Part shown: positions 2,857 through 58,514 of the stretch, in pieces
Position numbering within the stretch: the first letter of the stretch is position 1
Layout: each line of letters opens with the position of its first letter
Source: Patescibacteria group bacterium
GTDB taxonomy: Bacteria; Patescibacteriota; Microgenomatia; Levybacterales; UBA12049
Length of the DNA: 64,000 nucleotides
Assembly (NCBI GenBank): GCA_038062115.1
Contig: JBBTXS010000009.1
Coordinates: forward strand, 91,681-155,680
Direction: 5' to 3'
Translations under genes and position numbers: made by a program
Notes under the pieces: model-generated
Database searches by the model: none
What the model saw: only the letters and a program-made list of their open reading frames with translations
Told to the model about the DNA's origin: nothing

Positions 2857-2907
2857 ATAATGAAAATATAATAGCAGATTCATTCTTATTCTTCAATGGT
2901 AAATTTC

Positions 2908-3030
2908 GTAACTGTCCACGATTTGACAAAACATCTGCCATCTCGAGCCTAAGCGAGAGATCCCATGGGGATTTCTCACCTACTGCGTAGCTTCGAAATG
3001 ACAATCCTTTGGAAACTCGTGGACGGTTAC
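2908..3030. mobile_element. 123-bp MITE, GTAAC...GTTAC family, diverged copy, with 8-bp TSD
   Basis: TIRs are GTAACTGTCCACGATTTG / AAACTCGTGGACGGTTAC. Palindromic core is CATCTCGAGCCTAAGCGAGAGATCCC...CTTCGAAATGACA. Perfect 8-bp direct repeat TAAATTTC at 2900-2907 and 3031-3038. Confidence 0.85.
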
Positions 3031-3112
3031 TAAATTTCATGATAGACTTTATATTGTAGCTTCAGTTTTTTGATACTCCAGTTGGATAATAGAACCTGAT
3101 ATAATTTCTTTA

Positions 3113-5199: not shown

Positions 5200-5245
5200 A
5201 AAACAATTCTAGCAGAGGATACGTATTCAAGCAACATAGTTAATT

Positions 5246-5368
5246 GTAACTATTCAGTTCTTACCAATGAAGCTGTCATTTCGAGCGTAGCGAGAAATCC
5301 CCAGGGGATTCTCACGGCTACTTCGTAGCCTCAGAATGACATTCTGTTGGGAACAACTGAATACTTAC
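5246..5368. mobile_element. 123-bp MITE, GTAAC...CTTAC family, copy A, with 8-bp TSD
   Basis: Base-for-base identical to 11915-12037. TIRs are GTAACTATTCAGTTCTTACCAA / TTGGGAACAACTGAATACTTAC. TSD AGTTAATT at 5238-5245 and 5369-5376. Confidence 0.9.
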
Positions 5369-5428
5369 AGTTAATTAGCCTAAAGTAGGCTACTACGTAG
5401 TAACACACTTTAGAAACACGATAAACGC

Positions 5429-11906: not shown

Positions 11907-11914
11907 AAGACAAT

Positions 11915-12037
11915 GTAACTATTCAGTTCTTACCAATGAAGCTGTCATTTCGAGCGTAGCGAGAAATCCCCAGGGGATTCTCACGGCTACTTCGTAGCCT
12001 CAGAATGACATTCTGTTGGGAACAACTGAATACTTAC
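11915..12037. mobile_element. 123-bp MITE, GTAAC...CTTAC family, copy B, with 8-bp TSD
   Basis: Identical to 5246-5368. TSD AAGACAAT at 11907-11914 and 12038-12045. Confidence 0.9.
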
Positions 12038-12090
12038 AAGACAATAGGTTGCATGTAAAGCCAGCCTGATGTAGAATTGTTATTCATCCT

Positions 12091-37570: not shown

Positions 37571-38188
37571 TCAATGGTTATCTTTGTTGAACACAGTCAC
37601 TGAGTCTCTATTGAATTGCTCTTCTATAGTTAGAGTATTACCATTCTTTAAAAGTGTTAGTTTTAACTTGATGGTCTGTTTGCCATTTAGAGGTTGATTG
37701 CCAAATTGGATATGCCAATGAAGCTTGCCTTTTTGTCCCGGGGTTAAACTTAAGAATTCACCTTTGTAGTACTGTGGAGAAATATTAAGATATTCTATTT
37801 TGTCCCAACTTTGTTTGGAGGGAAATTTTTCCCAAGTACCGCTTTTTTGAGAATAGGTTTTATCTTCTACCGCGTAAGTTAAATCGAATGACTTTACTTG
37901 TAAATCAGAGGAGGTGTCATTAAACAAAAGAATCTCTGTTTCCTCATTGGAAAAATTTCCTTCCCCTGGCCAATAATGTTGTAAGGAAACTCCACCCTTT
38001 TGGTAAAAAGGTTTCTTCATTCCATAACCTCCGGAAGAGTTTTGTTGCTGAGGGGGTTGGTTTTGTAGGTTCTGGGGGTGTTGGTTTGACTCACCAGATT
38101 GTCGCGGGGATTTATCACCTGGTTTGAACATAATAACGAGTCCTCCTAAAACCGCAACGATGATTACTACGAATATTACTTTCGTCAT
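37571..38188 (-). CDS. Membrane-anchored hypothetical protein
   Basis: N-terminal TM VIFVVIIVAVLGGLVIMF, a Q/N/P-rich linker, then a beta-rich domain. Overlaps the upstream gene by 4 nt. Confidence 0.55.
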   Translation of the reverse strand: MTKVIFVVIIVAVLGGLVIMFKPGDKSPRQSGESNQHPQNLQNQPPQQQNSSGGYGMKKPFYQKGGVSLQHYWPGEGNFSNEETEILLFNDTSSDLQVKSFDLTYAVEDKTYSQKSGTWEKFPSKQSWDKIEYLNISPQYYKGEFLSLTPGQKGKLHWHIQFGNQPLNGKQTIKLKLTLLKNGNTLTIEEQFNRDSVTVFNKDNH

Positions 38189-39507
38189 CTTTTAAACTCT
38201 GCATAATTGGTGAGTTTCCAGAGGCCACCGCCGCATGAAGTTTGGTTTGTTTTTTCAATCTGTAAGGTTGTTGAAGTGGGCATAGTAAGCATAATAACTA
38301 CTCTAACATTATTCCTATAGGTATCGTCTGTTTCAAAACAATACACATTACCATCTGCTTTTATGTCCTTAAAATGTCTGTTAATGCGTTCCGAGTCTTG
38401 AGGTTGAAAGTTGTAAGTTCCCCAAGAAAACCCTTTACTTTCAGCTGAGTTTCCCATTGAGATTACCCCAATGGTTGGATCTGTATTGTCATAAGCCAAA
38501 GCCAAATGGGGATTCTCATGAGCCACATATTCCTCACCTTTTGCTATCCATACTCCTTGCGCTGTCCCTGGAAGATCCCAGTTGGCTTGCCCACAGACAG
38601 GTTCTGCCGTTCTTTTTCGCCCTCCGTCTGGAGTTCCTAAGCGAGATTTTAGCTGTTCTTTTAATGGAGCAGTGTAATAATCAAGCGGACAGACAGTGTA
38701 TTGCTTTTGTTCCTGGCCAAGCCAGCGTTTTGGATTTGCCAAAGTTGCAGGAGTCGCTCTTTTATCAAATAAACCAAAATCAAACACCATCTGTCCTTCT
38801 CCTCCACCGGCAGTACCTATTTGTTCACCAGCTTTCACCTGAATATTTACCCTTTTATTGCAAAGCTTAAAGGTTAACGTCCCAAACTTTTTGTAAGACC
38901 TTTGGTATTCATCGCACCTTAAGATCTGTCCTTCATCAAACGCTTTTTGGAGCTTTGAAGAAAACGTTTTGAAATGATCAAATAAACCTTTCACTTCTCT
39001 ACATGGAGAAAAATGAATCACTCCATCATTAAAATCTGGCCTTTCTTTTGCCTCGGTAAACCGAATCTCTGTAATGGTTATATCTGCAGGAGCAAAAGCA
39101 GGGATTTCTACTGGCAAACTGTTGAAATTATTCGGGTCTATGCGTCTGGGATGAAAATATAGATGGTGGGTAGGCAGGACATGAGAGGTAGGAGCAAGAG
39201 TTCCCAAAGGGACAATACCATTAAAGTCAGTGGGGTTTAGAGGAGCTACAGAAAAAAGCTCTCTTTTACTCCCACAAGAAGGAAGATTGGCAACATCAGA
39301 AAACCAGTCCTGCGATTGATCTCCTGTATGATTTTGATTTGCTTGTTGTTTTTGTGAATACTTAGGCGTCTCTTGTTGGAAACGCTGCATAATAACAAAA
39401 CCTAATCCAAGCAGTAGTGCCCCAAAAGCAAAGGCGCCAATAAGAAAATAACGAACAGTGAGCTTATTTTTTAACTCTTGAAATTTTGCAAGCATTTCTT
39501 CTTCCAT
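38185..39507 (-). CDS. Membrane-anchored Cys-rich hypothetical protein
   Basis: TM YFLIGAFAFGALLLGLGFVIM, a Q-rich linker, and a ~370-aa extracytoplasmic domain. VKAGEQIGTAGGGEGQMVFDFGLFD is only faintly LytM/M23-like, without the HxH motif. Confidence 0.55.
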   Translation of the reverse strand: MEEEMLAKFQELKNKLTVRYFLIGAFAFGALLLGLGFVIMQRFQQETPKYSQKQQANQNHTGDQSQDWFSDVANLPSCGSKRELFSVAPLNPTDFNGIVPLGTLAPTSHVLPTHHLYFHPRRIDPNNFNSLPVEIPAFAPADITITEIRFTEAKERPDFNDGVIHFSPCREVKGLFDHFKTFSSKLQKAFDEGQILRCDEYQRSYKKFGTLTFKLCNKRVNIQVKAGEQIGTAGGGEGQMVFDFGLFDKRATPATLANPKRWLGQEQKQYTVCPLDYYTAPLKEQLKSRLGTPDGGRKRTAEPVCGQANWDLPGTAQGVWIAKGEEYVAHENPHLALAYDNTDPTIGVISMGNSAESKGFSWGTYNFQPQDSERINRHFKDIKADGNVYCFETDDTYRNNVRVVIMLTMPTSTTLQIEKTNQTSCGGGLWKLTNYAEFKR

Positions 39508-51315: not shown

Positions 51316-51330
51316 GTGATACAATTGTAT

Positions 51331-51417
51331 TGTCATTGCGAGCGCAAGGCGAAGCAATCTCCACTCTTATTGAGATCGCCACGGGACGCACCGTCTGGTG
51401 CATCCCTCGCGATGACA
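51331..51417. repeat. Palindromic GTCATTGCGAGCG-type element upstream of pcrA
   Basis: TGTCATTGCGAGCGCAAGGCGAAGCAATC...GCATCCCTCGCGATGACA. It produces the false N-terminal extension in the ORF track. Confidence 0.8.
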
Positions 51418-51437
51418 CAGTTCACTTATTATACTCT

Positions 51438-53360
51438 ATGCAAAAAGAATTTCTCAAGGACTTAAATCTGGAGCAAAAAAAAGCGGTCCTACATAACCTG
51501 GGCCCAATGATAATTTTAGCAGGTGCTGGGTCTGGAAAAACAAGAGTGTTAACCTATAAAGTTATATATCTAATAAAACAAAAAGGTATAGATCCCCTAA
51601 ATATCCTTATGGTAACATTTACAAACAAGGCAGCGAACGAGATGAAAGAACGTGTGCAAAGATTTCTAGCTACCGACCAATCACCAATCACCAATCACCA
51701 ATCACCCACTATCTCCACTTTCCATTCTATTTGCGCCAAAATACTAAGGATTGATGGAAAATATATTGGTATTTCTTCTAGATTTGTTATTTATGATACG
51801 CAAGACCAGACAGATGCAACAAAAGAAGCTATGAAAAAACTTAGTATATCTGTTAAAGACTATAAACCAGTATCTATTTTAGCAACTATTTCTCAGGCAA
51901 AAAACGAGCTTATTTCAGACGCAGAGTATTCTAAATATGCAAGAGGACATTTTCAAGAGACTGTAGCAAAAGTTTATCCAGTTTATCAAGAAATTCTCAA
52001 AGCAAATTATGCACTTGATTTTGACGATTTATTGCTAAAAACAGTTTATCTTTTTGAACAAAATCCTCAGCTTCTTGAAAAGTATCAAAATCGCTTTCGT
52101 TATATTTTGATAGACGAATATCAAGATACAAACCATGCGCAGTATACACTTGCAAAAATGCTTTCAGATAAATTTAAAAATATTTGTGTCGTTGGAGACT
52201 TTTCTCAAAGTATTTATAGTTGGAGAGGAGCAGATTTTAGAAATCTAACAAAATTTAAAACTGATTTTAAAAATGTAGTAACTTTTGCGCTTTCTCAAAA
52301 TTATCGCTCAACCCAAAAAATTTTAGATGCAGCATCTTCTGTTATATCTAGAAATACTACCCATCCAGTGCTTAAACTTTGGACAGAAAATCCAAATGGA
52401 GAAGATGTTACCATTTATGAGGCAGGAAACGAGCATGAAGAAGTAGAATTTATCGTTAGTCAATTATCCAATTTGAAATATGAAATTACAAATTTAAAGT
52501 ATACAGATTTTGCCATTCTTTACAGAACCAATGCTCAATCTAGAATCATTGAAGAAGTTTTTATACATAGAGGTACCCCATATATTTTAATTGGAGGAAC
52601 AAGGTTTTACGAAAGAAAAGAAATAAAAGATGTATTAGCATATCTTAGAGTCTTAGCAAATTCAAAAGACATGGTTTCTTACAAACGGATTGAGAAATTA
52701 GGTAAAGGAAGGCTTGAAAAGTTTCTAGATTTTCAGAATAAAGTCATTCTGGGGATCCGCCAGCTGGCGGAGACTCCAGAATCTCCTGATACGAAAAGAC
52801 ATTCTGGACAAGCCAGAATGACGACTATTGATATTTTGGATCAAGTTCTTAAAAAAACAGAATATCTATCTTTATATAATGAGAAAAATGAAGAAGATAG
52901 AACAAGACTAGAAAATATTAAAGAACTGCGTTCTGTTGCTGTTTCGCTACCAAAACTTACGCAATTCTTAGAAAATGTTTCCCTTGTTGAACAAGAATAC
53001 CTGCCAGATAAACCTAATAATAACGGAAAAAAAGATGCAGTAACCTTAATGACCTTACATGCTGCTAAAGGACTCGAGTTTCCTATAGTTTTTATGATTG
53101 GCATGGAAGAAGGACTTTTTCCTCATAGCAGAAGCTTAATGGACAAGAACGAACTCGAAGAAGAAAGAAGACTCTGCTATGTAGGGATGACTAGAGCCAA
53201 AAGTCGACTTTTCCTAACATACACAAGACAACGACTTTTCTTTGGACAAAAAATGTCAAACACTGTCTCTAGATTTATTTTTGAGCTTCCAGAGAGCGTT
53301 CTTGCTAAAAATCTTAAGTCTATTAATAAACAGAAAAGCGAAATACCAGAATGGCTATGA
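51438..53360 (+). CDS. pcrA: ATP-dependent DNA helicase PcrA/UvrD family
   Basis: LNLEQKKAV...ILAGAGSGKTRVLT, ILIDEYQDTN, QNYRST and TLHAAKGLEFP motifs. Contains two in-frame repeat inserts. Confidence 0.93.
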   Translation: MQKEFLKDLNLEQKKAVLHNLGPMIILAGAGSGKTRVLTYKVIYLIKQKGIDPLNILMVTFTNKAANEMKERVQRFLATDQSPITNHQSPTISTFHSICAKILRIDGKYIGISSRFVIYDTQDQTDATKEAMKKLSISVKDYKPVSILATISQAKNELISDAEYSKYARGHFQETVAKVYPVYQEILKANYALDFDDLLLKTVYLFEQNPQLLEKYQNRFRYILIDEYQDTNHAQYTLAKMLSDKFKNICVVGDFSQSIYSWRGADFRNLTKFKTDFKNVVTFALSQNYRSTQKILDAASSVISRNTTHPVLKLWTENPNGEDVTIYEAGNEHEEVEFIVSQLSNLKYEITNLKYTDFAILYRTNAQSRIIEEVFIHRGTPYILIGGTRFYERKEIKDVLAYLRVLANSKDMVSYKRIEKLGKGRLEKFLDFQNKVILGIRQLAETPESPDTKRHSGQARMTTIDILDQVLKKTEYLSLYNEKNEEDRTRLENIKELRSVAVSLPKLTQFLENVSLVEQEYLPDKPNNNGKKDAVTLMTLHAAKGLEFPIVFMIGMEEGLFPHSRSLMDKNELEEERRLCYVGMTRAKSRLFLTYTRQRLFFGQKMSNTVSRFIFELPESVLAKNLKSINKQKSEIPEWL

Positions 53361-54451
53361 ATATAAATAGCGTTGCAACTCATCCCCTGCAATCTTTAAA
53401 CTGGGGAGAGTTTAGAAAAAAAACTGGGGTTAAAGTTGTTAGACAAAATGGATTACAAATAACAATTCACAAAATACCCCATTTTGCTTGGACAATTGGA
53501 TATTTTCCAAAAGGCACCATGCCAACAGAGGAAGTAATTCATGAGCTTGAAAAAATTGGTAAAAATGAAAGATGCATTTTTATTCAGATCGAACCGAATA
53601 TAGCTATTGCTCGTCATTCTGGGGAGGAGGAACGACGACTCCAGAATCTCTCTCGGATGCAACATGAGAACGTAAGAGATTCTGGACAAGCCAGAATGAC
53701 AGAATACGGACTTCGTCCCGCCGCTCATCCTCTCTTCACCAAATATACTTTTATTCTCGGGCTAACAAAATCAGAGGATGAACTACTGAAAAACATGCAT
53801 CCCAAAACTAGGTACAATATTAAAGTTGCTCAAAAACACGGCGTTAAGGTAATTGAAGATAACTCAGATGAAGCATTTGAAACATACTTAAGACTTACTA
53901 GGGAAACAACCAAAAGACAAGGCTTTTATGCACATACAGAAAATTACCATAGATTAATGTGGGAAACCCTCGGAATTCAGAATTCAGAATCTATAATTCA
54001 GAATTTCGATAGGAATAAATTGACAGCACATCTTTTTTTGGCAAAATATATACCTCCTTCGTCTAATTCTGAATTATTAATTATAAATTCTAAATTGCAA
54101 GCGCTAACGCTTGCCGCTTGGATTCTTTTTGTCTATAAAGATACACTTTATTATCCCTATGGAGCATCATCAAACCAGTATCGCGAAACTATGGCATCAA
54201 ATCTTATGATGTGGGAGGCAATAAAATTTGGAAAAAAATTAGGTCTTAAAAAATTCGATATGTGGGGAGCGCTGGGCCCAAATCCAGACACTAATGATCC
54301 GTGGTATGGTTTTCATAGATTTAAAGAAGGATATGGCGGAAAATTGGTTGAATTTGTTGGAAGTTACGATCTTGTTATAAATCCAATTTTATATCAACTA
54401 TATAAATTTGCAGATAAACTTCGCTGGTTGATCTTGAAACTTAAAAGCTAA
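53351..54451 (+). CDS. FemAB-family peptidoglycan interpeptide-bridge aminoacyltransferase
   Basis: NMHPKTRYNIKVAQKHGV...YPYGASSN.YRE.MASNLMMWEAIKFGKKLGLKKFDMWG. Contains three in-frame repeat-derived segments. Confidence 0.85.
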   Translation: MAMNINSVATHPLQSLNWGEFRKKTGVKVVRQNGLQITIHKIPHFAWTIGYFPKGTMPTEEVIHELEKIGKNERCIFIQIEPNIAIARHSGEEERRLQNLSRMQHENVRDSGQARMTEYGLRPAAHPLFTKYTFILGLTKSEDELLKNMHPKTRYNIKVAQKHGVKVIEDNSDEAFETYLRLTRETTKRQGFYAHTENYHRLMWETLGIQNSESIIQNFDRNKLTAHLFLAKYIPPSSNSELLIINSKLQALTLAAWILFVYKDTLYYPYGASSNQYRETMASNLMMWEAIKFGKKLGLKKFDMWGALGPNPDTNDPWYGFHRFKEGYGGKLVEFVGSYDLVINPILYQLYKFADKLRWLILKLKS

Positions 54452-54489: not shown

Positions 54490-55014
54490 TTAGACTACAT
54501 ACAAACTAAGTTTATTTTTTTCATCGATCTTAGCTTCTGGCAAGGCAATATTATATTTATAGCTTACAATTCTTGTTTCTTTTTTTAATTCTTTTTTAAA
54601 CTTTGGCAAAAGACGATTTAGTGCTTTTGGGACAAGATAAACAAACACTACTGTTGCATCGGAAATATCTACGTCAAAAAAATTCTTTCTCTTAATCTGC
54701 ACTTTGTCCGAAAGTTTGTTACTATGTAGTAGCATACTTGAGATAAAGGACCGTAAAGGATCTATTTCTATCCCCACTCCTTTTGCCCCAAATTCTTTTG
54801 CGGCAACTACCAGAGCTGTTCCGTCTCCAGACCCCAAATCATAGACAATATCGTCTTTTCCAACCTTTGCCAATCGACACATTGCTCTGGCAATTTTTTT
54901 ATTCGTCCTCCACCACGGAGACCAAGGACTATCCGGCGGCCACACAGCAGAAAGGACAAGAAGCAAGGATACGATAATACCAAGAAGAATGCTATTAATC
55001 AACAAAAAGCTCAT
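54490..55014 (-). CDS. Membrane-anchored class I SAM-dependent methyltransferase
   Basis: N-terminal TM, then VYDLGSGDGTALVVAAKEFGAKGVGIEIDP. Confidence 0.8.
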   Translation of the reverse strand: MSFLLINSILLGIIVSLLLVLSAVWPPDSPWSPWWRTNKKIARAMCRLAKVGKDDIVYDLGSGDGTALVVAAKEFGAKGVGIEIDPLRSFISSMLLHSNKLSDKVQIKRKNFFDVDISDATVVFVYLVPKALNRLLPKFKKELKKETRIVSYKYNIALPEAKIDEKNKLSLYVV

Positions 55015-55037
55015 TAGGAAAATTCTACATTATTTTT

Positions 55038-55088
55038 TGTAAGATTTCAGTCGAAATAATTGTAGTGTAATATCACTGAAATCTTACA
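55038..55088. repeat. 51-bp hairpin repeat R1 (14-bp perfect arms)
   Basis: TGTAAGATTTCAGT-cgaaataattgtagtgtaatatc-ACTGAAATCTTACA. Confidence 0.9.
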
Positions 55089-55361
55089 ATCGAAGCCCAT
55101 GCCCTAATACTCTCTGCCCTTGGCATAAGTCAGGCAGCCCAGTTTCTCAAAGACATGGAAGAAAGTAACACAGTGGTCATTCGGGTGCGGGCCGCTGATG
55201 AAGAACGGGCGAAACAGATTCTCTTTCAATACGACGACAAAGACTTTTCCTTTGCTGATGCGATCAGCTTTGCTGTCATAGAGCGACTGCGCATCTCCTA
55301 CGCCTTCACTTTTGACCACCACTTCACCCAGTACGGTCTAACCGTTCTTACCGCCAGTTAG
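55089..55361 (+). pseudogene. vapC: 5'-truncated PIN-domain (VapC-like) toxin gene
   Basis: The frame is open from directly after R1: IEAHALILSALGISQAAQFLKDMEESNTVVIRVRAADEERAKQILFQYDDKDFSFADAISFAVIERLRISYAFTFDHHFTQYGLTVL*. The first ~30 aa, including the first acidic residue, are missing. Visibly higher GC than the flanks. Confidence 0.65.
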
Positions 55362-55396
55362 GTGCGGCTCTACCCTACACCAGCCATCACATTTTG

Positions 55397-55661
55397 GATA
55401 GCGTACCAATTCTCGGTTGCTTTTTTGTTAAAACCTGTTTGAAAAGTAGTTGTTTTTCCTTCTCTGTCATTGCGAACCAGTCCGCAGACTGGTGTAGCAA
55501 TCTCCAAATGCATGAGATTGCTTCGTCTCCGTCATCTGACGGATCCTCGCAATGACAAATACTTCACCTTCTATCTTCTGTTAACAGAGGATACTTAAAC
55601 GATTGTCTCAATATGTCAATCTGAATACAAGGATTTAGCAACCGGAAAACAATACGCTATC
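55397..55661. mobile_element. 265-bp MITE with 8-bp TSD
   Basis: TIRs GATAGCGTA..GGTTGC / GCAACC..TACGCTATC. Internal core TGTCATTGCGAACCAGTCCGCAGACTGGTGTAGCAATC...GATCCTCGCAATGACA. TSD ACATTTTG at 55389-55396 and 55662-55669. Confidence 0.85.
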
Positions 55662-55719
55662 ACATTTTGCCACTTGACAATAAATCGTATATCTATTCTA
55701 TAATCGAGTAAGTACCCCC

Positions 55720-55867
55720 TGTAAGATTTCAGTCAAAATAGAGGAAAATTTGCAATGCCTGGGGGTTGAAAGTATATATAGTTTACCTTGCAAATACAGT
55801 CTAAAACAGAAATTAGCTGATTTATCATCTATTGCAAATTGTAGTATAATATCACTGAAATCTTACA
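55720..55867. repeat. 148-bp hairpin repeat R2 (same arms as R1, expanded loop containing a copy of the sodX 3' end)
   Basis: Left arm 55720-55733 and right arm 55854-55867. 55720-55787 is nearly identical to 56392-56460. The loop end AATTGTAGTATAATATC matches the R1 loop end. Confidence 0.9.
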
Positions 55868-55888
55868 GTCGGAGAAGGGAGCACTGTT

Positions 55889-56332
55889 ATGGGTTCGTCA
55901 AAGATAAGTTTCGCAGTAGTCACAGCAGTTTTCTTGGCAGTGGCGGGTGTTTTGGCGGTCTTTGAGGTGTTTGCTAACAGCGTGTCAGCCGCACCCAAGA
56001 TCACAGACCCGCTAGTTGTGAAAGCGTGCATGCGGGCTAACGGCAATATTCGGGTGACCATGACTTGGCATGACCTGGAAGGCGGAGTAGGAGCGGTGAC
56101 TGGGATTGCGAGCTATTATGCAGGTGCTCGAACTGCTTCACTAGCCTACACGCAGTTCCGCTACCAGACTAGTCCCTACCCTTTGTCTGGGCGGCAGGTC
56201 ATGGAATTTGCGCCGGCTCCGAACGTTCCGAGTCCAAATGACGGCCCCGTAAATCAGGTCTTTTACATCTTCGGCACTACACCTCCCTCAGTCGACTTCA
56301 GTGGCAGCATCACGGACTTCCGGAAATGCTAG
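55889..56332 (+). CDS. Secreted hypothetical protein (signal peptide, two Cys), GC-rich cargo gene
   Basis: MGSSKISFAVVTAVFLAVAGVLAVFEVFANSVSA|APK... SD-like AAGGGAG lies 8-9 nt upstream. Codon and GC usage are clearly unlike the neighbours. Confidence 0.65.
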   Translation: MGSSKISFAVVTAVFLAVAGVLAVFEVFANSVSAAPKITDPLVVKACMRANGNIRVTMTWHDLEGGVGAVTGIASYYAGARTASLAYTQFRYQTSPYPLSGRQVMEFAPAPNVPSPNDGPVNQVFYIFGTTPPSVDFSGSITDFRKC

Positions 56333-56391
56333 TGGGTCACTTGTCACGGATATAGCCTTTTCTCCAAGCTGTTAACTGTCATGAGCATGAC

Positions 56392-56436
56392 TGTAAGATT
56401 TCAGTCAAAATAGAGGAAAATTTGCAATGCCTGGGG
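56392..56436. repeat. Solo left arm R3 + shared 31-nt segment abutting sodX stop
   Basis: TGTAAGATTTCAGTCAAAATAGAGGAAAATTTGCAATGCCTGGGG, identical to 55720-55764. Confidence 0.9.
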
Positions 56437-56736
56437 TTAGAAAGTATATATCACTTTACCGATAATATCGTTTTTTGAGATCCAGCCAAACCTCTTACTA
56501 TCCATACTATCTTTTTCGTTGTCTCCTTTTACGAAATATTTTTTTCCGTCATCTGACTGATCAATTTTGGTAATTCTTTTCATAAGCACTCTCTCATTTT
56601 TTCTAAAAACCACAATATCACCCATTTTTGGTTTTGAGAAAAAATAGGGAAGGCTGCTTGCTAAAACACTTTGTCCATTTTTAATAGTAGGTTCCATGCT
56701 GTGGCCTTCGATCTTGAAAAGTGAAAAAAGAAGCAT
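56437..56736 (-). CDS. sodX: S26-family signal-peptidase-like NiSOD maturation protease
   Basis: GHSMEPTIKNG (catalytic Ser), VLMKRI (Lys) and GDNEKDSMDSR. Immediately downstream of sodN. Confidence 0.8.
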   Translation of the reverse strand: MLLFSLFKIEGHSMEPTIKNGQSVLASSLPYFFSKPKMGDIVVFRKNERVLMKRITKIDQSDDGKKYFVKGDNEKDSMDSKRFGWISKNDIIGKVIYTF

Positions 56737-56755
56737 TATGCTTATATTGTTTGTT

Positions 56756-57268
56756 TTATTGCTTAGGAATAATTATTGTTCCACCGCTTGGGTAAGGAGC
56801 ATTTATTTTTGTTGATTTTATACTTTTTGTCTTCCAAAATATTTCTGCTATTTCTTGAACAGTCTCTAAGAGGTTGTTCGCGGCATCAATATTTACTTCT
56901 TGCCGAGCCTTTGATGCAAGCTTCATTGTTTTAAATACTAAATCATGAAGTTCTGGATATTTATTCAAGTGTTCATCTTTAAAATAATCTCCCCACAAAA
57001 CTCGAATTTCATGTTTAACAATCTCGGCATGTTCTTCTTTTACTTTTGTGTAGCGGGAGAGTGCATGAATAAATTTCTTTCTTTCCTCAATAGACGCATT
57101 TTGATCAATCTTTAAATCGCGAATAAGATTCGTCATTCTAATAACAGTATGTGCTGCCATTTGCGCATTGTGCGGATCATAAATTCCACAAGGAATATCG
57201 CAGTGACCATAAGCAATTTGTGTTGGTAAAATTTTAGATACCAATAAAAATAATCTTTGCATTATCAT
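56756..57268 (-). CDS. sodN: Nickel-containing superoxide dismutase precursor
   Basis: The Ni-hook HCDIPCGIYDP follows a leader peptide. VLWGDYFK, YPELHDLV and IFWKTK match the Streptomyces SodN pattern. Confidence 0.9.
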   Translation of the reverse strand: MIMQRLFLLVSKILPTQIAYGHCDIPCGIYDPHNAQMAAHTVIRMTNLIRDLKIDQNASIEERKKFIHALSRYTKVKEEHAEIVKHEIRVLWGDYFKDEHLNKYPELHDLVFKTMKLASKARQEVNIDAANNLLETVQEIAEIFWKTKSIKSTKINAPYPSGGTIIIPKQ

Positions 57269-57305
57269 AATTTGATAGTAATACTAATCTGTTCTCTTGT
57301 CAACC

Positions 57306-58514
57306 TTAACTTTGTTTCAGTTCGCTTTCAAATTTATTCCACTTCCTGAAAGCTTTAAGCATGGGCAAAATTCCTAAAAGATATAGAAGGAATACTATCT
57401 GCTCAACGATCCAACCAATAACTCCACCAATATAAAAATTATTTATCTGTAAAATCGCAAAATGGCCTTTTAAAGGAACAATATATCCAAAATGAGACAA
57501 CTTATATTCTTTAAGAGGTAATTTTTTTATAAGTCTATAAATATTCTCTGCTGCAATTTTTCCCTGTTTTTGGGCAACTTCTGCAACTAGTGGCGCATAC
57601 TTTTTTGTTTTATGATCTATAAATTCTGCATTATCACCAATAGCAAAAATGTTATCAAAGCCTACAACTTGCAAATAATTATTGACTATTAATTGTCCTT
57701 TTGCATTGGTCGCAAAACCGCATTTAGCAATTATGCTTGCTGTCCTTACTCCTCCTGTCCAAATAAAGATATCGTAATTATAAGAATTACCAATATCTGT
57801 TTTTATGGCATCTTTGTTTACACTTTTAACATATTCACCCAAACAAAGTCTAACCCCAAAACTCTCTAGACGTTTTTTGGCGATTTCTGATGCTTTTTGG
57901 TCTAATTCTTTTAATAAACGCTCAGATTTTTGGATAAGCATTACTCTCATGCAGTCATCTTTACAAAAAAGTTGTTTTGCAAGACGTTCTCGAAAACTTA
58001 TAAGTTCTGCGACAAGCTCTGTTCCCGAAAACCCACCTCCCCCAATAACAACATCTACTACTCCTAATTTTGCTTTTTTGTGATATGCATTTTTGATCGC
58101 TTTTTTAATCTCTATTGCATCGGATAAAGTTTTTAGCGTAAGACTGTGTTGGGTAAGTCCGGGTATACCAAAATAAGCAGGTTCACTTCCCAAAGCAATA
58201 ACCAGATAATCGTAATAAAAACAAGCCTTATTTTTTGTTCTTATAAACTTATTTTCCGTATCAATTAAAGTAATCTCTCCACGAGCAACACTTACTTTGC
58301 GCTCAAAAATTTCTTTTAAAGGTATTGCTATATTTTTTTTCGGTGCCTCAGATGTTGCAACTTCATAAAGTGATGGGGTAAACAAATGATAATTATTTTT
58401 ATCTAAAAGGGTAATTCTAATATCAAGTTCGCATGCCTTTTTTACAAGCTCTAAAGCTGTTCTTATACCGGCAAATCCACCACCTAAAATAACGACATTT
58501 TTATTAAAGCTCAT
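57306..58514 (-). CDS. NDH-2-like FAD-dependent pyridine nucleotide-disulfide oxidoreductase with C-terminal membrane anchor
   Basis: Two dinucleotide folds: VVILGGGFAG and VVIGGGGFSGTE. GDNA motif. C-terminal hydrophobic helices. Confidence 0.85.
   Translation of the reverse strand: MSFNKNVVILGGGFAGIRTALELVKKACELDIRITLLDKNNYHLFTPSLYEVATSEAPKKNIAIPLKEIFERKVSVARGEITLIDTENKFIRTKNKACFYYDYLVIALGSEPAYFGIPGLTQHSLTLKTLSDAIEIKKAIKNAYHKKAKLGVVDVVIGGGGFSGTELVAELISFRERLAKQLFCKDDCMRVMLIQKSERLLKELDQKASEIAKKRLESFGVRLCLGEYVKSVNKDAIKTDIGNSYNYDIFIWTGGVRTASIIAKCGFATNAKGQLIVNNYLQVVGFDNIFAIGDNAEFIDHKTKKYAPLVAEVAQKQGKIAAENIYRLIKKLPLKEYKLSHFGYIVPLKGHFAILQINNFYIGGVIGWIVEQIVFLLYLLGILPMLKAFRKWNKFESELKQS

What the first reader, a model, noticed from the sequence alone, without database searches (positions are those of the whole stretch)
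55020..56470. Hairpin-bounded, GC-rich single-gene cargo segments inserted next to sodX, with a ~70-bp duplication of the sodX 3' end
A 14-nt arm TGTAAGATTTCAGT occurs three times (55038, 55720, 56392). Its exact inverse ACTGAAATCTTACA occurs twice (55075, 55854). Together they give a minimal 51-bp hairpin (R1), the same hairpin with a ~120-nt loop (R2) and a solo arm (R3). Each right arm is preceded by the shared AATTGTAGT(G/A)TAATATC and is followed immediately by DNA that is visibly GC-richer than the AT-rich host. The first such segment is a 5'-truncated PIN/VapC gene plus a MITE. The second is an intact 147-aa signal-peptide ORF. Separately, 55720-55787 and 56392-56460 are near-identical direct repeats, made of the arm, 31 nt, and a copy of the last ~25 nt of sodX including its stop. 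The sodX-proximal target was therefore duplicated when the distal segment arrived. Variable-length imperfect palindromes separating single-gene cargo, including a toxin gene, is reminiscent of integron attC/cassette arrays. However, no integrase is present in the window. The arms also resemble the termini of the 123-bp MITE family found here (TGTAA[C/G]NNTTCAGT). A transposase-mediated or hairpin-recombination cargo-capture mechanism is therefore equally possible. I cannot assign this arrangement to a described system.
Basis: partly seen in the sequence, partly recalled or inferred. Interest (0 to 1): 0.72.

Follow-up and report, generated by a model that had tools for sequence, protein, structure and literature searches.

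The report
Foldback repeats bounding foreign gene pieces
Three copies of a 148-bp, non-coding, promoter-carrying foldback repeat sit between a methyltransferase gene and sodX in a groundwater Patescibacteria genome and mark the joints of two pieces of foreign GC-rich DNA; it behaves like a small transposon relic that stitches in foreign genes, not like an integron.

Summary
The 14-nt arm occurs exactly five times, at the stated coordinates, and nowhere else in the 64 kb. The two segments after the right arms are the strongest compositional outliers in the window. Independent assemblies reproduce every junction.

The "hairpins" are copies of one conserved 148-bp foldback element, called E here. 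E2 (55720-55867) is complete. E1 (55038-55088) has an internal deletion. E3 (56392-~56455) is only the left ~60 nt. Full E copies, 82-87% identical, occur in two other metagenome contigs. One abuts sodX. The other lies inside a GC-rich toxin-antitoxin island.

The supposed "copy of the sodX 3' end" is intrinsic element sequence. sodX borrows its last codons and its stop from E3.

A sister genome has an empty sodX-methyltransferase junction.

E fails the attC tests and no recombinase is encoded in the window. Its termini match a 125-bp MITE family in the same window that makes 6-bp target duplications. E copies themselves have none.

Best reading (about 0.5): a MITE-like element whose directly oriented copies accreted foreign DNA by copy-to-copy recombination, as IS26 arrays do. 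A dedicated hairpin-site capture system is not excluded (about 0.12).

The parts
54490..55014 (-). Left host flank: a 174-aa class I SAM methyltransferase gene. It is syntenic with sodX in the sister genomes.
   Evidence: Pfam DOT1/PrmA. NCBIfam protein-lysine methyltransferase, below cut-off. 79% nt identity to L153 and 69% to L151.
55038..55088 (+). A 51-bp internally deleted copy of the element: the left 21 nt are fused to the right 30 nt. The stem is 15 bp and perfect.
   Evidence: (I9, D3, D4). nhmmer profile positions 117-147 match 55058-55088.
55089..55361 (+). Cargo 1a: a 5'-truncated vapC (PIN toxin), the last 90 of 145 codons plus the stop. GC is 0.51. The homology starts at the first base after the E1 right arm.
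   Evidence: up to 97% aa identity to 145-aa PF01850 proteins; 85-91% nt identity to the 50-52% GC contigs L020-L022, starting at 55089.
55397..55661 (.). A 265-bp insertion bounded by inverted repeats, with the 8-bp duplication ACATTTTG. It carries an inner hairpin MITE of about 90 nt. It is a later hitch-hiker, not part of the E family.
   Evidence: I5, D10. Contigs break here.
55664..55716 (+). An AT-rich promoter block (TTGACA 55674-55679, 19-nt spacer, TATAAT 55699-55704). It is 96% identical to the block upstream of the same ORF in L013.
55720..55867 (+). The complete 148-bp element. Terminal block: TGTAAGATTTCAGT / ACTGAAATCTTACA. Second inverted block: AATTTGCAAT / ATTGCAAATT. An outward promoter-like site lies at 55822-55850.
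   Evidence: I2; 82% identity to the L024 and L029 copies.
55876..56332 (+). Cargo 2: a ribosome-binding site (AGGGAG) plus a 147-aa secreted-type ORF (55889-56332). GC is 0.53. It is 92% nt identical to L013 7637-8088, and the homology ends one base after the stop.
   Evidence: The structure model has low confidence (pLDDT 57, all-beta).
56392..56455 (+). The left ~60 nt of the element, fused to sodX at an ATATAT microhomology. It supplies the last 4-5 codons (..IYTF) and the stop of sodX.
   Evidence: D1; profile positions 1-63.
56437..56736 (-). Right host flank: sodX, the Ni-SOD maturation protease of the S26 family. sodN follows at 56756-57268.
5245..5369 (.). A 125-bp MITE whose termini (TGTAACTATTCAGT / ACTGAATACTTACA) match the E arms at 12 of 14 positions. 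It has the 6-bp target duplication GTTAAT. An identical copy lies at 11914-12038 with the duplication AGACAA.

Best explanation
The three "hairpins" are three copies of one non-coding foldback element, E. It is 148 bp long and has 14-bp perfect terminal inverted repeats ending TG...CA. It has a second inner inverted block. It also has a conserved promoter-like site reading outward through its right end. E is best read as a non-autonomous (MITE-like) relative of a DDE-type transposon. It shares its termini with the 125-bp MITEs that transposed recently in this same genome.

The slot between the methyltransferase gene and sodX differs among sister genomes. In this genome it was built stepwise. 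A resident E copy next to sodX served as the landing pad. Incoming DNA that carried another E copy plus adjacent foreign sequence was then joined to it by recombination between E copies. Either of two routes could do this. One is a trans-acting transposase in an IS26-like targeted conservative reaction. The other is ordinary homologous recombination on the ~150 bp of identity after DNA uptake, with the far end sealed by microhomology.

This mechanism yields what is seen: directly oriented copies interspersed with cargo, no target-site duplications, genes cut off exactly at element ends, and one truncated copy fused to sodX. The right-end promoter of E then reads into the cargo (E2 into the 147-aa ORF).

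Shown here: the element family, its orientation, the exact breakpoints, the foreign origin of the cargo, the empty sister site, and the absence of target duplications.

Inferred: the enzyme, the order of events and promoter activity.
For: Family.
- Full 148-bp copies occur in L024 and L029 at 82-87% identity. The arms are identical apart from one mismatch in the L029 left arm.
- Host sodN is only 80% identical between the window and L024.

Termini.
- TGTAASWWTTCAGT has 9 hits against 0.35 expected, and all are termini of E or of the 125-bp MITE.
- That MITE has two identical copies with clean 6-bp duplications.

Array signature.
- E1, E2 and E3 all lie in the same orientation.
- None of the 4 intact-ended copies has a flanking duplication (sequences).
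- vapC homology starts at 55089, the first base after the arm.
- In L029 an ORF runs open into the left end of E.
- In L024 sodX runs into the right arm and stops there.

E2 and E3.
- Their left halves are identical for 46 nt and then differ. This is what a crossover between an incoming full copy and a resident truncated copy would leave.

Foreign cargo.
- Searches show the compositional shift.
- The closest vapC relatives sit on contigs of 50-52% GC.
- The ORF also occurs in a second AT-rich genome (L013) and in a 57% GC contig (L019).

Variable slot.
- L153 is empty, with a spacer of about 112 nt and no arms.
- L150 and L151 hold an unrelated gene there.

Promoter.
- A promoter-like site matching 10 of 12 positions sits at the homologous place in all three full copies.

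Analogy.
- The IS26 translocatable-unit mechanism is described in PMC4196232.
Against: - No transposase or recombinase is encoded in the 64 kb. No autonomous element with these termini was found.
- Only five copies in three genomes are known, and none is dispersed elsewhere in the window. A typical MITE family would be dispersed and would carry target duplications.
- The block shared with L013 is not bounded by the arms. The homology stops 8 nt after the right arm and 58 nt before E3.
- L013 has a different foldback at the same place in the 5' leader, plus a matching solo arm after the ORF. This hints at a more specific foldback-ORF relationship than chance insertion.
- The element is about as conserved as host coding genes, so it may have a cellular function.
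Confidence: 0.5

Rival explanations
1. E is the recombination site of a dedicated gene-capture system that works like an integron but is unrelated to one. A recombinase encoded elsewhere in the genome recognises the two arms, as a duplex or as a folded single strand. It inserts circular cargo precisely at the outer end of an arm. Successive insertions build an array next to sodX.
For: - The joints are exact at the arm ends.
- All copies share one orientation, and none of 4 has a target duplication.
- The arms are identical, bar one mismatch, across genomes whose genes are about 80% identical.
- E sits beside the sodX 3' end in two lineages (window and L024).
- E is linked to foreign toxin-antitoxin genes in the window and in L029.
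- An outward promoter could express captured genes.
Against: - No recombinase lies in the window or in the 12 kb of L029.
- Cargo 1 is a gene fragment, not a cassette.
- The ORF block shared with L013 is not delimited by the arms, and L013 uses other hairpins.
- The three changes in the L029 left arm are not compensated.
- The arms match the ends of an ordinary MITE that makes target duplications.
Confidence: 0.13
2. E is a single-strand hairpin substrate of an HUH (Y1) transposase, in the manner of REPIN/RAYT or IS200/IS605 elements. Cargo moves with it by peel-and-paste or by read-through to a second hairpin.
For: - In L013 the same ORF lies directly downstream of a 221-aa Y1_Tnp gene.
- That gene is flanked by inverted hairpin repeats. 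A third copy of the repeat follows the ORF.
- E copies have no target duplication.
- R1 and R2 fold well as single-stranded DNA (z about -5).
Against: - No Y1 homologue is found in the window (tblastn).
- The L013 Y1 gene has its own, unrelated hairpins (TTTCACCTTTCAGGTGAAA). It does not have the TGTAA arms.
- E has true terminal inverted repeats ending TG...CA. IS200/IS605 elements lack these.
- No compensatory changes support the stem.
Confidence: 0.06
3. E is mainly a cellular regulatory module: a promoter plus a long leader hairpin, paired with a complementary 3' arm. It was retained because it lets AT-rich Patescibacteria express or stabilise foreign GC-rich genes. On this view the array reflects selection and local duplication rather than a mobility mechanism.
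For: - The promoter-like site is conserved.
- In both the window and L013 a foldback sits between the same promoter block and the same ribosome-binding site, and a complementary arm follows the ORF. The arms are 40 nt at 83% in the window and 21 nt at 100% in L013 (I1, 96 I3).
- The element is conserved to about the same degree as coding genes.
Against: - E1 faces a dead gene fragment.
- The L024 copy points antisense into sodX.
- E3 is a broken copy.
- Regulation does not explain exact breakpoints of unrelated DNA at the arm ends, or the similarity of the termini to a transposing MITE.
- Rfam finds nothing.
Confidence: 0.1
4. The arrangement is an assembly or binning chimera that joins a GC-rich organism to a Patescibacteria contig at short repeats.
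For: - The window comes from a metagenome-assembled genome.
- Several contigs break at the nested MITE (55451 and 55607).
Against: - The same joints appear in independent assemblies from different wells and filter fractions. L001 spans the whole island.
- The same ORF is embedded in a second AT-rich genome, assembled in two other projects.
- The arms are AT-rich and far shorter than assembler k-mers.
Confidence: 0.02

Closest known systems
IS26-type arrays (pseudo-compound transposons built from translocatable units; PMC4196232)
   Same: - Directly oriented copies of one element are interspersed with unrelated cargo.
- Internal copies have no target duplications.
- Genes are truncated exactly at element ends.
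- New units are added next to an existing copy.
   Different: - E is 148 bp and non-coding, whereas IS26 is 820 bp and encodes Tnp26.
- The termini are unrelated.
- The enzyme here is unknown, and plain homologous recombination may suffice.
Promoter-bearing bacterial MITEs such as Neisseria Correia elements, and MITE-flanked mobilisation units (IMU, TIMEs; PMC4133298). Their properties are recalled from my own knowledge.
   Same: - They are 100-300 bp long and non-coding.
- They have terminal inverted repeats and a foldback structure.
- They carry outward promoters.
- Pairs of copies can bracket and move passenger genes.
   Different: - Those families are dispersed in many copies and carry target duplications (TA for Correia elements).
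- E copies are few, clustered at joints of foreign DNA, and have no duplications.
Integron attC sites and attC clusters lacking an integrase (CALIN)
   Same: - Imperfect palindromes of variable length separate single genes, including toxin genes.
- All lie in one orientation, with no integrase nearby.
   Different: - The core-site polarity is reversed.
- The stem is perfect, with no extrahelical bases.
- Cargo includes a gene fragment and a promoter.
- The same ORF carries different flanking hairpins in another genome.
REPIN/RAYT and IS200/IS605 hairpin elements
   Same: - They have hairpin-forming repeats and no target duplication.
- A Y1 gene neighbours the same ORF in L013.
   Different: - E has true TG...CA terminal inverted repeats.
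- The window has no Y1 gene.
- The L013 Y1 gene has its own, different hairpins.
Integrative elements that duplicate the 3' end of their target gene (attL/attR)
   Same: A 60-70 nt direct repeat brackets cargo 2 and overlaps the end of sodX.
   Different: - The repeat is element sequence found in other genomes away from sodX.
- It shows no similarity to other sodX ends.
- No integrase is present.

Membership tests
Integron attC / CALIN | Core sites R'' (RYYYAAC) at the 5' end and R' (GTTRRRY) at the 3' end of the site | tested here: not met
   The arms read 5'-(T)GTAAGAT...ATCTTAC(A)-3'. This matches 6 of 7 positions only in the reverse polarity. The consensus is from my own knowledge. No attC model was available, and Rfam gave no hit.
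Integron attC / CALIN | A folded strand with extrahelical bases and unpaired spacers | tested here: not met
   R1 folds into a perfect 15-bp stem with no bulge. R2 is a bipartite 14 + 11 bp stem.
Integron attC / CALIN | An IntI integrase and attI in the genome | tested here: inconclusive
   None lies in the 64-kb window. The rest of the genome could not be read.
Integron attC / CALIN | A cassette is a complete ORF that travels with its own site | tested here: not met
   Cargo 1 is a truncated vapC plus a promoter. The 147-aa ORF in L013 is flanked by other foldbacks, and the homology is not delimited by the arms.
MITE (non-autonomous DDE transposon) | Short, non-coding, with terminal inverted repeats | tested here: met
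   148 bp; 14-bp perfect arms within 38-nt arms at 82%; all six frames carry stops in L024 and L029.
MITE (non-autonomous DDE transposon) | Target-site duplication flanking each copy | tested here: not met
   None of 4 copies with both ends has one (E1, E2, L024, L029). The related 125-bp MITE has 6-bp duplications.
MITE (non-autonomous DDE transposon) | Many dispersed copies in a genome | tested here: inconclusive
   The profile search finds only the three clustered copies in the 64 kb. An exact-arm pattern scan of 185,579 representative genomes gave only 2 chance hits. The same scan of JGI metagenomes gave 2 real loci. These were exact-match scans, so diverged copies would be missed.
MITE (non-autonomous DDE transposon) | Termini shared with an autonomous element or its transposase | not testable with these tools
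   The termini are shared with another MITE. No transposase gene is in reach.
IS26-type translocatable-unit array | Directly oriented copies interspersed with cargo, no internal duplications, genes cut at element ends | tested here: met
IS26-type translocatable-unit array | The element encodes an IS6-family transposase | tested here: not met
   E is non-coding.
REP/RAYT or IS200/IS605 | An HUH Y1 transposase associated with the hairpins | tested here: not met
   tblastn of the L013 Y1 protein against the window gave no hit better than E = 0.8. In L013 the Y1 gene is flanked by different hairpins.
Xer/dif modules | A 28-bp site: two 11-bp arms around a 6-bp spacer | tested here: not met
   The arms are 14 nt long and lie 23 or 120 nt apart.
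Integrative element with a duplicated target 3' end | The repeated segment derives from the target gene | tested here: not met
   The segment is present in the E copies of L024 and L029. Element interiors show no significant similarity to five sodX 3' ends.

The most novel reading that the evidence does not exclude
Patescibacteria may possess a previously unknown hairpin-site gene-capture system. A conserved 148-bp palindromic site with its own outward promoter would be recognised by a recombinase encoded elsewhere. Foreign GC-rich genes from neighbouring or host bacteria (toxin-antitoxin pairs, small secreted proteins) would be inserted precisely at its ends, preferentially next to sodX. Functionally this would be an integron analogue with unrelated sites and an unrelated enzyme.
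Probability: 0.12. Interest if true: 0.85.

Novelty: new variant of a known kind. Interest (0 to 1): 0.45.

Why it matters
Patescibacteria (CPR) have tiny genomes and few recognised mobile elements. How they take up genes from other bacteria is poorly understood.

This locus offers a concrete, repeatable signature: a conserved promoter-bearing foldback element sits at the joints of foreign GC-rich DNA in at least three genomes. The slot next to sodX is empty, filled with a native-looking gene, or filled with foreign pieces, depending on the lineage.

If the element is the agent of these joins, it would be a simple marker for locating acquired genes in CPR genomes. It would also be an entry point for finding the enzyme responsible. 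If it is only a MITE that likes such islands, the finding is ordinary mobile-element biology in an under-studied phylum.

Tried and rejected
1. The repeat as a copy of the sodX 3' end. Rejected: the same sequence lies in the E copies of L024 and L029. Alignment scores of element interiors against five sodX ends are no better than shuffles. SodX C-termini vary after GKV(I/V)x, so they cannot settle the question by themselves.

2. Homology between the right-side promoter of E and the promoter of the slot gene in L150 and L151. Rejected: p = 0.03-0.07 by shuffles, and 43 of 3660 random window tiles score as well.

3. attC or any known RNA family. Rfam gave no hit and the attC features are not met.

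4. A phage or plasmid origin. There is no match in phage or plasmid records. The arm pattern and the ORF are absent from viral contigs. The 120 viral hits of the bare 14-mer are single chance matches.

5. Other metagenome hits (L023, L025-L028). These are single arms with no partner in unrelated contexts, so they are chance matches.

6. Structure of the 147-aa protein. The model has pLDDT 57, too poor for a fold search.

7. Strain-level variants in the Hainich data (empty site, inversion). None was found among the contigs. The only differences lie in the loop of the nested MITE.

8. Hidden homology between the window island and L013, L024, L029 or L019 beyond the reported blocks. None was found.

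9. Host genes shared between L029 and the window, to look for an empty site. None was found.

10. Literature on Patescibacteria MITEs or integrons. Nothing relevant was found.
Full report
**Observation**

- The 14-mer TGTAAGATTTCAGT occurs exactly at 55038, 55720 and 56392 on the + strand. It occurs at 55075 and 55854 on the - strand. There is no other hit with 0 or 1 mismatch in the window. Looser matches are at chance level (14 found, 13.7 expected).
- The arms give a 51-bp hairpin at 55038-55088 with a 15-bp perfect stem.
- They also give a 148-bp foldback at 55720-55867, whose 38-nt arms are 82% complementary, and a solo left arm at 56392.
- A direct repeat joins 55719-55779 to 56391-56451: 61 nt at 97%, or 70 nt at 94% with one gap.
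- The DNA after each right arm holds the two highest GC peaks of the 64 kb (0.50 and 0.57, against mean 0.357 and sd 0.040). It also holds the largest tetranucleotide deviation, 0.78 against 0.416 ± 0.047.

The arrangement is not an assembly artefact. The window comes from Hainich groundwater metagenomes. A contig from another well (L001) spans 54693-57538 at 99.8% identity. Eight further contigs cover the individual joints.

**The cargo**

- Segment 1 begins with the last 90 codons and the stop of a PIN/VapC toxin gene. Full-length relatives are 145 aa and up to 97% identical.
- Nucleotide homology to those relatives, which sit on contigs of 50-52% GC, starts at 55089. That is the first base after the right arm of the first hairpin.
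- Next comes a 265-bp insertion bounded by inverted repeats with an 8-bp duplication. It carries an inner hairpin MITE.
- An AT-rich promoter block follows.
- Segment 2 is a ribosome-binding site plus a 147-aa ORF with a signal-like N-terminus and two conserved cysteines. The ORF has no family assignment and only two homologues among 5.8 billion proteins.

**The hairpins are a conserved element**

An exact-pattern scan of JGI metagenomes found two true relatives. I call the element E.
- L024 carries a full 148-bp copy directly abutting the 3' end of sodX. There sodX reads ...GKVVYA|VRFQ*, with its stop inside the arm.
- L029 carries a full copy inside a GC-rich island (0.50-0.58) in an AT-rich genome. 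The island holds three toxin-antitoxin pairs: Gp49/HigB-like with an HTH protein, DUF433 with DUF5615, and HTH_17 with PIN. An ORF on the left runs open into the element.
- The three full copies are 82-87% identical. Host sodN is 80% identical between the window and L024.
- The 14-nt arms are identical except for one mismatch in the L029 left arm. A second inverted block, AATTTGCAAT / ATTGCAAATT, is also conserved.
- The three changes in the L029 left arm are not compensated. The data therefore show sequence conservation, not covariation.
- All three full copies carry a sigma-70-like site matching 10 of 12 positions at the homologous place, reading outward through the right arm. It is TTATCA/TTGATC/TTGATT, then 17-18 nt, then TATAAT.

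In the window, E2 (55720-55867) is the complete copy. E1 (55038-55088) is an internally deleted copy: the left 21 nt joined to the right 30 nt. E3 matches profile positions 1-63 (56392-56455) and then stops.

**The sodX "duplication"**

The repeated 60 nt includes TAGAAAGTATATAT. That sequence is part of the element in L024 and L029, and L029 is not next to sodX. I tested whether element interiors resemble sodX 3' ends. I used the window sequence beyond 56451 and the sodX ends of L024, L150, L151 and L153. None scored better than shuffled controls (p 0.08-0.9).

E3 is therefore a truncated element copy fused to sodX at an ATATAT microhomology. The last codons (..IYTF) and the stop of sodX are element sequence. 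The tail is acceptable because SodX C-termini vary after GKV(I/V)x.

**Sister loci**

- Homologues of SodX at 57-78% identity led to syntenic loci.
- L153 has sodN-sodX, then a very AT-rich spacer of about 112 nt with no arms, then the methyltransferase gene.
- L150 and L151 hold an unrelated gene of 221 or 274 aa in the slot, which looks like an HExxH peptidase.
- L024 holds other DNA, a different foldback, and E.
- The slot is thus variable. The window's 1.35 kb is an insertion relative to L153.

**The second occurrence of the ORF**

L013 is another AT-rich genome (37% GC), assembled in two unrelated projects.
- The promoter block (53 nt, 96%) and the ribosome-binding site plus ORF (458 nt, 92%) are shared with the window.
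- The piece between them differs. The window has E2. L013 has other hairpins, including a 90-nt foldback with arms TGTAAATTTGCA.
- A solo arm perfectly complementary over 21 nt to that foldback's right arm follows the ORF.
- The homology to the window ends one base after the stop codon. It starts 8 nt after the arm in the window and 36 nt after it in L013.
- A relative of the L013 foldback lies beside E in L024.
- In L013 the module lies between two direct copies of a hairpin repeat that also flanks, inverted, a 221-aa Y1_Tnp gene.

**What E is not**

- It is not attC. The arms read 5'-GTAAGAT...ATCTTAC-3', the reverse of R''/R'. The R1 stem has no extrahelical bases. Cargo 1 is a fragment. 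The same ORF has other flanking hairpins elsewhere. Rfam has no hit.
- It is not a Xer/dif site, because the geometry is wrong.
- It is not demonstrably HUH-linked. The window has no Y1 homologue, and the L013 Y1 gene has its own hairpins.
- The 30 largest non-ribosomal ORFs of the window are housekeeping genes or have no family match. None is a recombinase or transposase.
- Nothing similar is found in phage, plasmid or viral collections.

**What E most likely is**

- Its termini match those of the 125-bp MITEs at 5245-5369 and 11914-12038 at 12 of 14 positions. The motif TGTAASWWTTCAGT has 9 hits against 0.35 expected, all at element termini.
- Those MITEs are two identical copies with clean 6-bp duplications, so a matching transposase has been active recently.
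- TG...CA ends are typical of the DDE transposases of the retroviral-integrase superfamily, such as IS3, IS481, IS21, Mu and Tn7 (established knowledge).
- Yet none of the four E copies with both ends has a target duplication. All three window copies lie in one orientation, and unrelated DNA starts exactly at the arm ends.
- This is the signature of arrays built by recombination between element copies, as shown for IS26 translocatable units (PMC4196232).
- Here the reaction could be catalysed by a trans-acting transposase. Alternatively it could be RecA acting on about 150 bp of identity after DNA uptake, with illegitimate joining at the far end.
- The 46-nt identity of E2 and E3, followed by differences, fits a crossover between an incoming full copy with cargo 2 and a resident truncated copy at sodX.
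- The ATATAT joint at sodX looks like a microhomology joint.

These last steps are inference.

**Weak points and rivals**

- No enzyme has been identified.
- Only five copies in three genomes are known. This may partly reflect the exact-match scans.
- The repeated foldback, ORF and arm layout in two genomes with different foldbacks is not explained by chance insertion.
- That layout keeps two rivals alive. One is a dedicated site-specific capture system (about 0.13). The other is a regulatory role for the foldback and promoter (about 0.10).
- An HUH mechanism (about 0.06) and an assembly chimera (about 0.02) are less likely.

**Verdict**

The integron reading and the "sodX target duplication" are not supported.

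The object is a new, conserved, promoter-bearing foldback element family of Patescibacteria. It marks joints of foreign DNA in a variable slot next to sodX. It is a new variant of a known kind (MITE or IS-array biology), of moderate interest. There is a modest chance that it is something more specific.

Noticed in passing
window 55397-55661 (inner hairpin about 55467-55560): A 265-bp insertion bounded by inverted repeats, with the 8-bp duplication ACATTTTG, nested in cargo 1. It contains a GTCATTGCGA...CGCAATGAC hairpin MITE of about 90 nt. Several independent contigs break here (55451, 55607). The only differences between L001 and the window lie in this hairpin's loop (55530-55541).
   Followed up: partly
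window 5245-5369 and 11914-12038: Two 100% identical 125-bp MITEs with 6-bp target duplications (GTTAAT, AGACAA). This is evidence of recent transposition in a Patescibacteria genome. Their termini match the E arms at 12 of 14 positions.
   Followed up: yes
window 2907-3031: A third MITE with a similar core (about 62% identical) but different terminal repeats (GTAACTGTCCACGA) and the 8-bp duplication TAAATTTC. The same core appears to have been paired with different ends.
   Followed up: partly
window 51330-53360 and 53351-54451; L024 376-753: MITE-derived in-frame peptide inserts (..SGQARMT..) lie inside a UvrD-like helicase and a FemAB-family protein. L024 SodX carries an in-frame insert of about 26 aa of the same kind, as do P0124 and P0294.
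   Followed up: no
L013 6507-8154: A 221-aa Y1_Tnp (IS200-like, PF01797) gene is flanked by 35-nt inverted hairpin repeats (91%). A third, direct copy of the right repeat lies 862 nt downstream. The ORF147 module sits between the two direct copies, as if it were passenger DNA of a RAYT/IS200-like unit.
   Followed up: partly
L029 1-3652: A GC-rich island (0.50-0.58) in an AT-rich genome (about 0.35). It holds three toxin-antitoxin pairs, a membrane protein and a truncated ORF. It ends about 90 nt before cysS and lies at the end of the fetched locus.
   Followed up: partly
window 55050-55100 compared with L020, L021 and L022: At the E1/vapC' joint the donor genes read GTGTTACTC|ATCGAAG and the window reads ATCTTACA|ATCGAAG. 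A TTAC lies 2 nt off the joint in the donors. It could be patchy microhomology or chance.
   Followed up: partly
L019 725-898; L021 31-963: The GC-rich relatives of both cargo genes sit next to tyrosine-recombinase genes. L019 has a Phage_integrase fragment beside the ORF147 homologue. L021 has a 310-aa integrase two genes upstream of vapBC. The cargo may have come from integrative elements or integron-like arrays in the donor organisms.
   Followed up: no
window 38185-39507 (-): A 440-aa membrane-anchored protein with no Pfam or NCBIfam match. It lies in one of the few other GC-elevated stretches of the window (0.47).
   Followed up: partly
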